Assembly (NCBI RefSeq): GCF_032062105.1
Contig: NW_026937907.1
Coordinates: forward strand, 1 to 64,000
Direction: 5' to 3'
Source: Saccostrea cucullata
Taxonomy: Eukaryota
Length of the DNA: 64,000 nt
Positions 3,001 through 6,000 of the stretch are shown piece by piece. Position 1 is the stretch's first letter; every line of letters begins with the position of its first letter. The position numbers are program-made.

Positions 3001-6000
3001 TAATCTAAGATTCAGCTGGCTCTACCCCCTGCTTTTTTATATATGTGCAGGAGAGTCGTCATTCCTTTACCTGAGTTCTTGCATCTCACAAGCTAGGTCC
3101 AAATAAAATAAAGTTGTAAAATTCCGATTTCGGATTATGACCTAAATTTTTCAAAAACTTGCTTCAGATGCTGGATATGACCTAAATTTTCCAGATAAGT
3201 GACAATGGTAAAGTTTATTGACTATAACTCTGTTTTGATGTAACTTGCATGAATGCATCTAGGGAAGGGCACTACCAGACTGGCTTGGGATGCTGGAAGT
3301 GACCTACATTTTCTGGATGAGTGAGCAGGTGTAAAAGAGACAATTTGTTCCTCTGCTGGGGATTGAACCCGGGGCCTCTGGCTTGCCAGTCCAGTGCTCT
3401 ACCAATTGAGCTAAAGGGTTAACCCACTAGCCCAAGCTAGTAGGATGCCATTTATCTTATACTACTACATTGTCCCCCTCCAGAGAATGAGATGTCCTCA
3501 TCTCTTTTGGAGTGCCGACACCTGTCGGGCGAAGTTCTAGTGGCAATTACTCTCACCCGCCAGAGAACACCCGGGTCCCAACGTGGGTGCCAAATGTAAC
3601 AGAGACAATTTTGTGCCGCTGCTGGGGATTGAACCTGGGGCCTCTGGCTTGCCACTCCACTGCTCTATCAATTGAGCTAAAGGGTTAACCCACTAGCCCA
3701 AGCTAGTAGGATGACATCTATCTTACACTACTACACAGGTTTAAGTTTTTTTTTAAAGCAGGTCTGTTCCCAAGTGACTTTAAGTCCTACCTTAACCAAA
3801 CTTAATATGTCAGAATGTACGCTAAGTACATGTACAAAAAAAAATGGTGTGAGATTTGCCTTAATTACATGTATAGATAACATTTGTGGAGGTGATCGAG
3901 CTTCATAATCTTTTTATTACAATATGTTTTTAATTTGAACAGGTTGAGGAAGTCGAATTTAAACATCAAATTTGTAACAAACACCACAAAAGAATCACAG
4001 AAACTACTATTACAGAGGTTGAGAAGAATTGGCTTCAGTATTGAATCCTCAGAAATCTTCACCTCCTTAACTGCTGCAGTTAAATTAATAAAGAGAAAAT
4101 CATTACGGCCATTCCTGCTTGTAGATGACAGAGCTTTAGAGGATTTTGAAGGTAAGTAAAGTATAACTGCATTTGTTGAATAATATACTTGAGGGGCTTA
4201 GACAGATTTGAAAATAATATTTTTTCAAAGTATCTGTATTATTGTTATATCATGACTTATATGTTGCTTTAGCTAATACATGTAATTCACATGAAAATAT
4301 AACAAAAAACTTGTTTTATCTGGAAATTATTGAAACTACAATTGATATTGTTTGATTGATATATCCTTGCACTGTTTGAAGCAGTCTAATGAGCATTGAT
4401 CAAAAATATGCCACACTCATCACTGCAAGGACTAATTCATGTAAAAAAAAAATTGAATGCTTACTTAATGGTTTTCTTTATTGATTCGTCATGTGATTGT
4501 CATGTGAATGCACTTTAATTTGCAAATAAAAGTTAATTTGTATGAGTTTATTTCACATTTATTTACTATATAGTTATTACACATAAATTAATATTTTTTA
4601 CAGAGAATGACTTTTAATATATATGTCATTTGCTTTGTAGGAATTGACACCAAGTCTCCAAATGCAGTTGTGGTAGGACTAGCTCCTGAAAAATTTGAGT
4701 ATGGCAAACTCAATCAAGCTTTTCGGTTTGTATGAGATCATACTACTTATTCCCTATAGCATTGATATTAATTTTCAAAATTGATATGCAAGTTTTTATG
4801 GTAGTGTAATAAATGGAGAAATACAAAGCAATAAAGTTTGTAAAATACCTTTATAAAGTTACGTACAGCATCACAAATTGATATACATATTCAGACAGTA
4901 TCATCTTTGTGAAGTAACTATTTTGTCATAAACAGTACAATAGTATTTCATCCAAGTTTATAAGCTACATTTTGTACTATATAGCTGATATAACTTATGT
5001 TCTGAGAGGGCATGTAAGGAGCACTGGATGAGTTCTTTGACACATGAACTTTTTTTAAGGTTATTGATAGATGGAGCTGCACTTATAGCCATTCACAAAG
5101 CCAGATATTATAAGACAGCTGCTGGATTATCCCTGGGACCAGGTATAAGTCATGTAAGAGGGAGAATTCAATCTTAATTCTCATTCACTTTTAAAATAAA
5201 GTGAGGAGAACCTTGGAAATCAAACCTTTTTTTTATTTGGCAAGAAATACATGCACAGGAATGTGAAGGAAAAGCTTCTCATAAGAGCAGCAGCAACAAA
5301 TAATATAAACAAAACATAATTATGATTTTGAACTTTTGAGACAAGGGCCAGGTTTTTCAGAGTTTTTTCTCTATTTTCAATAGGGCCATTTGTAACTGGA
5401 TTAGAATATGCAGCCGATTGTAAAGCAGAAGTTGTTGGAAAACCTGAGAGAACTTTTTTCTTGTCTGCAGTAGAAGAATTTAATTGTCTTCCAGAGGAAT
5501 GTGTTATGATTGGAGATGTACAGTTTCTTATTTATTTAGAAAATCTTGCATCAATATTTTGACATATAAAATAGTGAACTTTTAAGTCATTACATAGAGC
5601 TCATTTTGAGATATGTGTGCCATGTTTGTAGGATGTTAGAGATGATATAAATGGTGCACAGAACTGTGGAATGCTGGGTATCCTTGTACAGACAGGTATA
5701 ATATATCAGTACTATTCAAGTTAAATAGATTATGGAGATGGATTTACACAATTTTTATTGTGTTAACATTTTATATCATTTTCCCCCAGGTAAATACAGG
5801 CCTGAAGATGAAGAAAAAATAAATCCCAAACCATACCTGACTGTTAAAGACTTTCCTGAAGCTGTTGATAAAATTTTATCTCAAAAATATTCATAAATTA
5901 GAAGTAAGATAATTTAACAAAGAAAATATTGCAAGACTCACCAGTAGATTTATCATTCTGTGTTATTCCATGCATATGTTGCATTAAATAACATGACTGC

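What the first reader, a model, noticed from the sequence alone, without database searches (positions are those of the whole stretch)
3326..3739. Complete miniature LTR retrotransposon whose LTRs contain a tRNA-like Pol III cassette
Seen: 140/141-bp LTRs with TG...CA ends, a 125-bp non-coding interior with PBS and PPT, and a CAGG TSD. Each LTR holds a cloverleaf-like segment with A and B boxes and a GGC-type anticodon loop. Established: TRIMs with small-RNA-derived LTRs exist (Cassandra with 5S rRNA, Helenus with tRNA-like sequence), and the 4-bp TSD fits animal Helenus as I recall it. Inference: a SINE/LTR hybrid transcribed by Pol III and primed by a host tRNA (PBS resembles tRNA-Lys type), mobilised in trans. 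It would be mis-annotated as two tRNA pseudogenes.
Basis: partly seen in the sequence, partly recalled or inferred. Interest (0 to 1): 0.7.

Follow-up and report, generated by a model that had tools for sequence, protein, structure and literature searches.

The report
Helenus-type miniature LTR retrotransposon, oyster
This is one old copy of a tiny non-coding LTR retrotransposon with a tRNA-like piece in each terminal repeat, a kind already described in oysters under the name Helenus, sitting in an intron of an ordinary oyster gene.

Summary
Two direct repeats, 3330-3469 and 3595-3735, match in 130 of 141 columns. They start TG and end CA, enclose 125 non-coding bases, and are flanked by CAGG on both sides.

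The element is 406 bp and lies on the minus strand. In that orientation a TGG-initiated primer-binding-like site starts 2 nt after the 5' LTR, and an 11-of-12-purine tract abuts the 3' LTR.

Each LTR carries a tRNA-derived segment on the same strand. Rfam scores it 40 bits in one LTR and 19.3 bits, below threshold, in the other. The anticodon-position triplet is GGC. It is not a credible tRNA gene.

The host is an oyster close to Saccostrea cucullata. The element lies antisense in intron 1 of an HDHD2-like gene.

All of this fits Helenus (Kojima 2024, PMC10886601). That paper reports tRNA-bearing TRIMs of 311-1263 bp with 4-bp duplications in animals, 51 families in pteriomorph bivalves, and Saccostrea among the hosts.

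Copy number, the named Repbase family, the primer tRNA and the autonomous partner could not be tested. No oyster genome, Repbase or supplement was available.

Interest is low.

The parts
3326..3329 (.). Target-site duplication, left copy (CAGG)
   Evidence: Read directly. Offset control: 3 of 169 offset pairs match, all of them this same repeat.
3330..3469 (-). 3' LTR in element orientation, 140 nt, TG..CA ends
   Evidence: Direct-repeat pair, 130 of 141 columns identical.
3333..3336 (-). The only run of four or more T on the element strand, 3 nt before the element's 3' end. Candidate Pol III stop (inferred).
   Evidence: The count is not unusual: 1 observed against a mean of 1.07 in shuffles, and 3557 of 5000 shuffles have 1 or fewer. 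The matching place in the 5' LTR has no such run.
3348..3418 (-). tRNA-derived segment of the 3' LTR, with GGC at the anticodon position
   Evidence: Rfam RF00005, 40 bits, gathering score 29, model positions 1-71. ARAGORN calls it only at the 80% threshold, as tRNA-Ala(ggc).
3396..3413 (-). Box A region of the 3' LTR. The motifs TRGCY and YGG named in Kojima 2024 are both present.
   Evidence: Sequence checked against the motifs as given in the paper.
3360..3369 (-). Box B region of the 3' LTR (holds GGTTC)
   Evidence: Sequence and motif from the paper.
3470..3594 (-). Internal domain, 125 nt, non-coding
   Evidence: It folds at -47.9 kcal/mol, z -1.85, with 12 of 200 shuffles folding as well.
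3470..3481 (-). Polypurine-like tract (11 of 12 purines) directly abutting the 3' LTR
   Evidence: Such 12-mers make up 0.9% of the window.
3575..3592 (-). Primer-binding-like site. It starts with TGG, 2 nt after the 5' LTR. The primer tRNA is not identified.
   Evidence: It is not complementary to the LTR's own tRNA-like part: the longest exact match is 6 nt, within the chance range.
3595..3735 (-). 5' LTR in element orientation, 141 nt, TG..CA ends
3622..3679 (-). tRNA-derived segment of the 5' LTR, more decayed. In register with the other LTR it spans about 3614-3684.
   Evidence: Rfam RF00005, 19.3 bits, below the gathering score, model positions 8-63. YGG of box A is absent at the homologous place; TRGCY and GGTTC are kept.
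3736..3739 (.). Target-site duplication, right copy (CAGG)
2807..3942 (+). Host context: intron 1 of an HDHD2-like gene (GC..AG by my reading). It holds the element in antisense.
   Evidence: Exon 1 is 2713-2806 and exon 2 starts at 3943. Exon 2 matches Pfam Hydrolase_6 at 6.8e-12. tblastn with 4 named oyster HDHD2 proteins gives no match between 2955 and 3934.

Best explanation
This is one complete, aged insertion of a Helenus-type TRIM: a 406-bp non-coding LTR retrotransposon whose LTRs carry a tRNA-derived Pol III-type promoter. It sits in an oyster genome of the genus Saccostrea or a close relative.

Shown by the sequence:
- two LTRs with TG..CA ends;
- a TGG-initiated PBS-like site 2 nt after the 5' LTR;
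- a purine tract abutting the 3' LTR;
- a 4-bp target duplication;
- a tRNA-like segment with box A and box B motifs in the same orientation as the element;
- no coding capacity.

Inferred, following Kojima 2024 and the Cassandra precedent:
- Active family members are transcribed by RNA polymerase III, starting near the first base of the tRNA-like segment in the 5' LTR.
- That leaves about 50 nt of the LTR upstream as a U3 equivalent.
- Transcription runs through the interior and stops in the 3' LTR. In this copy the only T4 run lies 3 nt from the LTR's end.
- The repeated R would then be about 85 nt and U5 only a few nt.
- The RNA is copied by the reverse transcriptase of an autonomous Ty3/Gypsy-type element, primed by a host tRNA at the PBS and by the purine tract for the second strand. 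It is inserted by that element's integrase with a 4-bp stagger.

This particular copy is probably inactive. Its LTRs differ at 11 of 141 columns (Jukes-Cantor K = 0.075), and 6 of those differences lie in the 71-nt tRNA-like part. The 5' LTR, the one that would have to act as promoter, has lost the YGG of box A and scores below the Rfam threshold.
For: - LTR pair and boundaries.
- TSD and chance controls.
- tRNA-like segments on the element strand.
- Box A and box B motifs as defined in the paper, read in the sequence.
- No ORF of note.
- Element G+C is 50% against 34% for the window.
- Host is an oyster. HDHD2 exon 2 is 99% identical to Saccostrea cucullata, 91% to S. echinata, 81% to Ostrea edulis and 80% to Crassostrea virginica. 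The best named hits of a GPCR ORF are also oysters.
- Kojima 2024 matches on every point it states. Helenus is defined as a TRIM with tRNA-derived sequence in its LTRs. It is 311-1263 bp long and gives 4-bp TSDs in animals. There are 51 families in five orders of Pteriomorphia, with Saccostrea glomerata and two Crassostrea species listed. The PBS is complementary to tRNA 3' ends, and Gypsy elements are the inferred partners.
- There is no complementarity between the PBS and the LTR's own tRNA-like part, as the paper also reports for the families it studied.
Against: - Only this one copy could be examined. The window holds no second copy and no solo LTR, and no other tRNA-like head. No oyster genome could be searched, so repetitiveness is untested.
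- The primer tRNA is not identified. The window has no tRNA gene, and a full-text search for the 16-nt complement of the PBS found 0 papers.
- The tRNA-like parts do not fold into a cloverleaf on their own. ARAGORN rejects them at default settings.
- The position of the T4 run is suggestive only. One run in 406 nt is what shuffles give, and the two LTRs differ at that place, so the ancestral state is unknown.
- None of the 77 ORFs of 70 aa or more in the window matches a reverse transcriptase, integrase or gag family in Pfam. No partner element is therefore in view.
- A paralogous 'empty site' comparison was inconclusive.
Confidence: 0.9

Rival explanations
1. These are two copies of an ordinary tRNA-derived SINE that landed side by side, or a SINE dimer mobilised by a LINE. 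It is not an LTR element.
For: Each repeat holds a tRNA-like head with A and B boxes. tRNA-derived SINEs are abundant in bivalves, judging from the titles and abstracts of PMC4758252 and PMC11481361 in a search listing only.
Against: - The repeated unit starts about 50 nt upstream of the tRNA-like head and ends TG..CA.
- The 125-nt spacer is not repeated after the second copy.
- One 4-bp duplication flanks the pair as a whole, not each copy.
- The PBS-like and purine tracts sit exactly at the two inner LTR junctions.
- There is no A-rich or simple-repeat tail.
Confidence: 0.03
2. A local partial tandem duplication with a period of about 265 bp arose around a tRNA pseudogene, with no transposition involved.
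For: The start-to-start spacing is 265-266 nt and there are only two copies. No further copy in the window proves mobility.
Against: - Tandem Repeats Finder reports no array there.
- A duplication would not be expected to give TG..CA ends, a TGG site 2 nt inside one junction, a purine tract at the other junction and a 4-bp flank repeat all at once. The joint chance is about 1e-8 from the frequencies.
- The structure matches a published element class in the same host family.
Confidence: 0.02
3. It is a Helenus-type TRIM, but the tRNA-like segment is a passenger: a SINE relic in the LTR. On this reading it is not the working promoter, and family members are transcribed by Pol II or by read-through.
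For: - No experiment shows Pol III transcription of Helenus; the paper says so.
- The tRNA-like part of this copy has decayed as fast as the rest of the LTR: 6 of the 11 differences lie in 71 of the 141 columns.
- The T4 placement is not statistically unusual.
Against: - Boxes A and B are the parts conserved across Helenus families.
- Element lengths stay within a range the author relates to the weak processivity of Pol III.
- Cassandra, the 5S analogue, is reported there as transcribed from its internal promoter.
- Post-insertion decay of a dead copy says nothing about selection on active masters.
Confidence: 0.15

Closest known systems
Helenus (tRNA-bearing TRIM, 'TRIMp3'; Kojima 2024, PMC10886601), molluscan branch
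   Same: It has two short LTRs with a tRNA-derived segment holding box A and box B motifs, and a non-coding interior bounded by a PBS and a PPT. Its 406 bp fall within the reported 311-1263 bp. It has a 4-bp duplication, as in animal Helenus. The host is an oyster, and Ostreidae including Saccostrea are listed hosts.
   Different: No difference was found in any feature I could test. It is unknown which of the 51 bivalve families it belongs to, if any. The consensus sequences are in Repbase and in the paper's supplement, and neither was available. [quoted passage not shown] This copy has GGC at the anticodon position.
Cassandra (plants) and Ajax (nemerteans): TRIMs with a 5S rRNA-derived promoter in the LTR
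   Same: The design is the same: a small-RNA-gene-derived Pol III promoter inside each LTR of a non-coding TRIM.
   Different: Their promoter is 5S-derived, not tRNA-derived, and they give 5-bp duplications (Ajax). Cassandra's terminal RNA repeat is given as 18 bp. Here the inferred repeat would be about 85 nt.
biv-TRIM (Satovic et al. 2019, PMC6934838)
   Same: It is a TRIM found in bivalves, including an oyster.
   Different: biv-TRIM has 202-218 bp repeats, a 77-80 bp interior, a 7-bp PPT and a conserved 14-nt interior motif. Here the repeats are 140 and 141 bp and the interior is 125 bp. The motif is absent from the whole window even with 2 mismatches allowed. The part of the results I read (part 1 of 2) reports no tRNA-like LTR segment.
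tRNA-derived SINEs (SINE2)
   Same: They share a tRNA-like head with an internal Pol III promoter and a short non-coding body. The paper proposes that Helenus arose by insertion of such a SINE into a TRIM LTR.
   Different: SINEs have no LTRs, PBS or PPT and depend on LINEs. This element has all three LTR-element features and a fixed 4-bp duplication.

Membership tests
Helenus (Kojima 2024) | TRIM architecture: two LTRs around a short non-coding interior, total length under about 1-1.3 kb | tested here: met
   The LTRs are 140 and 141 nt, the interior 125 nt and the total 406 bp. There are no meaningful ORFs.
Helenus (Kojima 2024) | tRNA-derived sequence inside the LTR, with box A (TRGCY, YGG) and box B (GGTTC) | tested here: met
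   Rfam tRNA scores 40 bits in the 3' LTR and 19.3 bits in the 5' LTR. TRGCY and GGTTC are present in 2 of 2 LTRs; YGG is present in 1 of 2.
Helenus (Kojima 2024) | PBS next to the 5' LTR and PPT next to the 3' LTR | tested here: met
   TGG starts 2 nt after the 5' LTR, and an 11-of-12 purine tract abuts the 3' LTR. The positions are met. Complementarity to a real tRNA is a separate row.
Helenus (Kojima 2024) | PBS complementary to the 3' end of a host tRNA (Lys, His, Ile, Pro, Glu or Ser in bivalves) | not testable with these tools
   The window has no oyster tRNA gene, and no tRNA collection was available. A full-text search for the 16-nt complement found 0 papers. Figure S2C of the paper is a supplement, and supplements are closed.
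Helenus (Kojima 2024) | 4-bp target-site duplication in animals | tested here: met
   CAGG lies on both sides. A 5-bp reading is possible only by taking the first T out of the LTR.
Helenus (Kojima 2024) | Host within the reported range (Pteriomorphia for molluscs) | tested here: met
   HDHD2 exon 2 is 99% identical to Saccostrea cucullata. Ostreidae, including Saccostrea glomerata, appear in Table 1.
Helenus (Kojima 2024) | Interspersed multi-copy family with solo LTRs; similarity to a named Repbase consensus | not testable with these tools
   No eukaryotic genome collection and no Repbase were available. The window has no further copy. A scan of the prokaryotic genome collection for a 24-nt LTR stretch gave 0 matches.
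biv-TRIM (Satovic 2019) | 202-218 bp terminal repeats, 77-80 bp interior, conserved 14-nt interior motif | tested here: not met
   The sizes differ. The motif is absent with up to 2 mismatches.
Functional tRNA gene | Cloverleaf with a paired acceptor stem, detectable by tRNA finders | tested here: not met
   ARAGORN calls no gene at default. The Rfam alignment lacks the two bases between the acceptor and D stems and has unpaired acceptor positions. The minimum-free-energy folds are not cloverleaves.
Retrozyme (LTR element with hammerhead ribozyme) | Hammerhead ribozyme motif in the repeats | tested here: not met
   The permissive Rfam scan of 3200-3850 lists 4 matches: two tRNA matches and two weak chance-level ones. 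None is a hammerhead.

The most novel reading that the evidence does not exclude
The copy may belong to a Helenus lineage of Saccostrea that is not yet catalogued. Its transcript limits could then be read from the sequence: a start at the tRNA-like segment about 50 nt into the LTR and a stop at a single T run 3 nt from the LTR end. That would give a terminal RNA repeat of about 85 nt and almost no U5. This is far from the 18-nt repeat reported for Cassandra. It would offer a concrete, descriptive handle on how a Pol III unit passes its own stop signal in the 5' LTR.
Probability: 0.2. Interest if true: 0.3.

Novelty: already known. Interest (0 to 1): 0.15.

Why it matters
It matters mainly for annotation. 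Elements of this kind add tRNA-like hits and short G+C-rich islands inside introns, and they can be miscalled as tRNA pseudogenes or SINEs. Rfam at its curated threshold calls one 'tRNA' here. As a clean full-length copy with both junctions and the duplication intact, it is a good worked example of a Helenus insertion in a Saccostrea genome. It does not open a new question. The open questions for the class stay open: whether Pol III really drives it, which Gypsy element moves it, and how termination in the 5' LTR is avoided.

Tried and rejected
1. Other copies in the window. BLASTN with word size 7 found only the two LTRs. A permissive Rfam scan of all 64 kb found no other tRNA-like head.

2. 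Other copies elsewhere. The only open genome collection is prokaryotic, and a 24-nt LTR stretch gave 0 matches. Copy number therefore stayed unchecked.

3. Paralogous empty site. A 46-nt repeat (3157-3202 and 3279-3324, 80% identical) ends 5 nt before the insertion. I aligned the left and right flanks separately to the paralogue. The left flank aligns. The right flank matches at only 29 invariant columns of 71. The result is inconclusive and I did not use it.

4. Primer tRNA. No tRNA is available in the window, and a literature string search gave 0 papers.

5. Self-priming by the LTR's own tRNA-like part. The longest complementary stretch is 6 nt, inside the shuffle range. Rejected.

6. T-run statistic. 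One run is what chance gives, so it is kept only as a suggestion.

7. Autonomous partner in the window. Pfam found no RT, integrase or gag among 77 ORFs of 70 aa or more (12, 65; 3 further ORFs listed were overlapped by longer ORFs and not scanned). Shorter or frameshifted remnants were not searched for.

8. biv-TRIM identity: rejected.

9. Retrozyme: rejected.

10. Functional tRNA: rejected.
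Full report
**What is there.** The window has no N and 33.7% G+C. At 3330-3469 and 3595-3735 lie two direct repeats of 140 and 141 nt. They are identical in 130 of 141 columns, with 10 substitutions and 1 one-base indel. Similarity stops sharply at both outer edges. Both repeats begin TG and end CA. The 125 nt between them (3470-3594) are not repeated outside. The tetranucleotide CAGG stands directly before the first repeat (3326-3329) and directly after the second (3736-3739).

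In a control over 169 boundary offsets, only this repeat gave any 4-6 bp flank match. It appears three times in the table, as the 4-bp reading, a 5-bp reading and a shifted 4-bp reading. The 5-bp reading needs the first T to be taken out of the LTR, although both LTRs start with it, so 4 bp is preferred. The window's own background frequencies for TG, CA, equal 4-mers, a TGG within 6 nt and a purine-rich 12-mer multiply to about 1e-8. That is my arithmetic and assumes independence.

**Orientation and inner landmarks.** In that orientation the 5' LTR is 3735..3595. The interior begins with two bases and then TGG and onward (3592..3575), the position and start expected of a primer-binding site. 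The interior ends with a tract of 11 purines in 12 (3481..3470) that touches the 3' LTR (3469..3330). The element is 406 bp with 50% G+C, well above its surroundings. ORFs that touch it reach at most 67 aa and none looks like a gene. The interior folds somewhat better than shuffles, with z = -1.85 and 12 of 200 shuffles folding as well. I give that little weight.

**The tRNA-like segment.** Rfam's tRNA model matches the minus strand of the 3' LTR at 3418..3348 with 40 bits, against a curated cut-off of 29. It matches the homologous part of the 5' LTR with only 19.3 bits, below the cut-off. The tRNA-like part therefore has the same orientation as the element. The triplet at the anticodon position is GGC in both.

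It is not a believable tRNA gene:
- The alignment lacks the two bases between the acceptor and D stems, and some acceptor positions are unpaired.
- ARAGORN reports nothing at default or mildly relaxed settings, and calls tRNA-Ala(ggc) only at its 80% threshold.
- Neither segment folds into a cloverleaf on its own.

[quoted passage not shown] TRGCY and GGTTC are present in both LTRs; YGG is present in the 3' LTR only. Six of the 11 LTR differences fall in the 71-nt tRNA-like part and five fall outside it. The copy has decayed evenly since insertion.

**Host and context.** The window is not human and I did not take it for human. Exon 2 of the neighbouring gene is 99% identical to HDHD2 of Saccostrea cucullata, 91% to S. 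echinata, 81% to Ostrea edulis and 80% to Crassostrea virginica. A GPCR ORF further along also has oysters as its best named hits. The host is therefore an oyster of the genus Saccostrea or very close to it.

Mapping four named oyster HDHD2 proteins onto the window gives separate matches for exon 1, which ends at about 2806-2807 in 2 of 4. The other two run on to 2954 at lower identity. Exon 2 matches at 3935-4153 in 4 of 4, with later exons downstream, and nothing matches between 2955 and 3934. Reading the frames, exon 1 is 2713-2806 and exon 2 starts at 3943, with a GC donor and an AG acceptor. The element thus sits antisense in intron 1 and makes up about a third of it. I searched this gene exon by exon. 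The step of joining the exons into one model and searching with it was left out.

**Comparison with what is known.** I read the results, methods, discussion, figure legends and tables of Kojima 2024 (PMC10886601).
- Helenus is defined there as TRIMs with tRNA-derived sequence in their LTRs.
- The elements are 311-1263 bp long, with a PBS and a PPT.
- Animal Helenus makes 4-bp duplications, and fungal and plant Helenus 5-bp.
- Bivalve families use tRNA-Lys, His, Ile, Pro, Glu or Ser as primer.
- Only Gypsy elements resemble them at the PBS.
- The author found no complementarity between the LTR's tRNA-like part and the PBS. The same is true here: 6 nt, at chance level.

Every feature I could test is met, so by the paper's structural definition this is a Helenus element. 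The other bivalve TRIM in print is biv-TRIM (PMC6934838; abstract and the first part of the results read). It differs in repeat and interior sizes, and its conserved interior motif is absent from the window. A search for 'TRIMp3' found no relevant paper other than Kojima 2024: 6 papers hold the string and 5 are unrelated.

**How it most likely works.** Shown: the anatomy above. Inferred from the family description and the Cassandra precedent:
- Active members are transcribed by Pol III from the internal A and B boxes of the 5' LTR, beginning near the first base of the tRNA-like part.
- The RNA runs through the interior and ends in the 3' LTR.
- A Gypsy-type partner supplies reverse transcriptase and integrase.
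- A host tRNA primes at the PBS and the purine tract primes the second strand.
- The 4-bp stagger gives the duplication.

In this copy the only run of four or more T on the element strand lies 3 nt before the end of the 3' LTR, and the matching place in the 5' LTR has none. That would fit a stop there and a terminal repeat of about 85 nt. However, one such run in 406 nt is what chance gives, and the ancestral state is unknown. It is a suggestion, not evidence.

This copy is probably dead. K is 0.075 between the LTRs, which at an assumed 1e-9 to 1e-8 substitutions per site per year means roughly 4-38 million years. That rate range is my assumption and comes from no call. The would-be promoter LTR has also lost part of box A.

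**What stayed unchecked.**
- Copy number, solo LTRs and empty sites in the host genome.
- The named Repbase family. Repbase and the paper's supplementary consensus file, Table S1 and Figure S2C were not available. They bear directly on family and primer assignment.
- The primer tRNA.
- The partner element. None of the 77 ORFs of 70 aa or more scanned in the window matches RT, integrase or gag.
- Any expression.

**Verdict.** The feature is real. The kind is already known and published for this host group. Interest is low. The main practical point is that such elements can be miscalled as tRNA pseudogenes or SINEs.

Noticed in passing
window 9484-18302: This looks like a piggyBac-type DNA transposon of about 8.8 kb. 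Inverted repeats of 111 nt, 95% complementary, lie at 9484-9594 and 18192-18302. Both begin with TTAA. They enclose an uninterrupted 558-aa ORF at 14156-15832 (-) that matches the piggyBac-type transposase family DDE_Tnp_1_7 at 2.5e-94, and a THAP-domain ORF at 17464-17931 (-).
   Followed up: partly
window 2807-3942: By my reading of the frames, intron 1 of the HDHD2-like gene has a GC donor rather than GT. Two of the four oyster protein models run on into this intron up to 2954, so the annotations disagree about the end of exon 1.
   Followed up: partly
window 3157-3202 and 3279-3324: A 46-nt direct repeat, 80% identical, lies just upstream of the insertion site. Shorter related pieces lie at 3136-3153 and 3176-3193. 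Its nature is unknown.
   Followed up: partly
window 362-1045: A 75-bp tandem repeat of about 9 units coincides with a 222-aa ORF at 368-1036 (-). That ORF has only weak, sub-threshold or marginal Pfam matches.
   Followed up: no
window 1231-1526 and 8557-8981: There is a perfect 148-bp tandem duplication at 1231-1526 and a 38-bp minisatellite at 8557-8981.
   Followed up: no
window 41862-44133: A unit of about 1.1-1.2 kb is duplicated in tandem at 98-100% identity. It lies next to an exon-like ORF with a GST N-terminal domain at 41362-41616. It is either a recent duplication or an assembly artefact. A related 126-nt piece lies at 29183-29308.
   Followed up: no
window 56403-57443, 58749-59750, 62182-63234 (all -): Three intronless rhodopsin-type GPCR paralogues lie in a row. 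They are 73-75% identical at the DNA level. Their best named relatives are oyster 'thyrotropin-releasing hormone receptor-like' and 'orexin receptor-like' proteins at 56-60% identity.
   Followed up: partly
window 45087-45447, 57853-58122, 20891-21587, 1743-1909: Four MITE-like inverted-repeat pairs have arms of 62-115 nt at 81-90% complementarity. The pair at 57853-58122 lies beside sub-threshold microRNA-family matches at 57781-58032. Those matches are probably hairpin look-alikes.
   Followed up: no
window 32917-33387 and 34030-34281 (+): Two exon-like ORFs carry a SUEL-type lectin domain (5.7e-19) and an F5/8 type C domain (4.5e-08).
   Followed up: no
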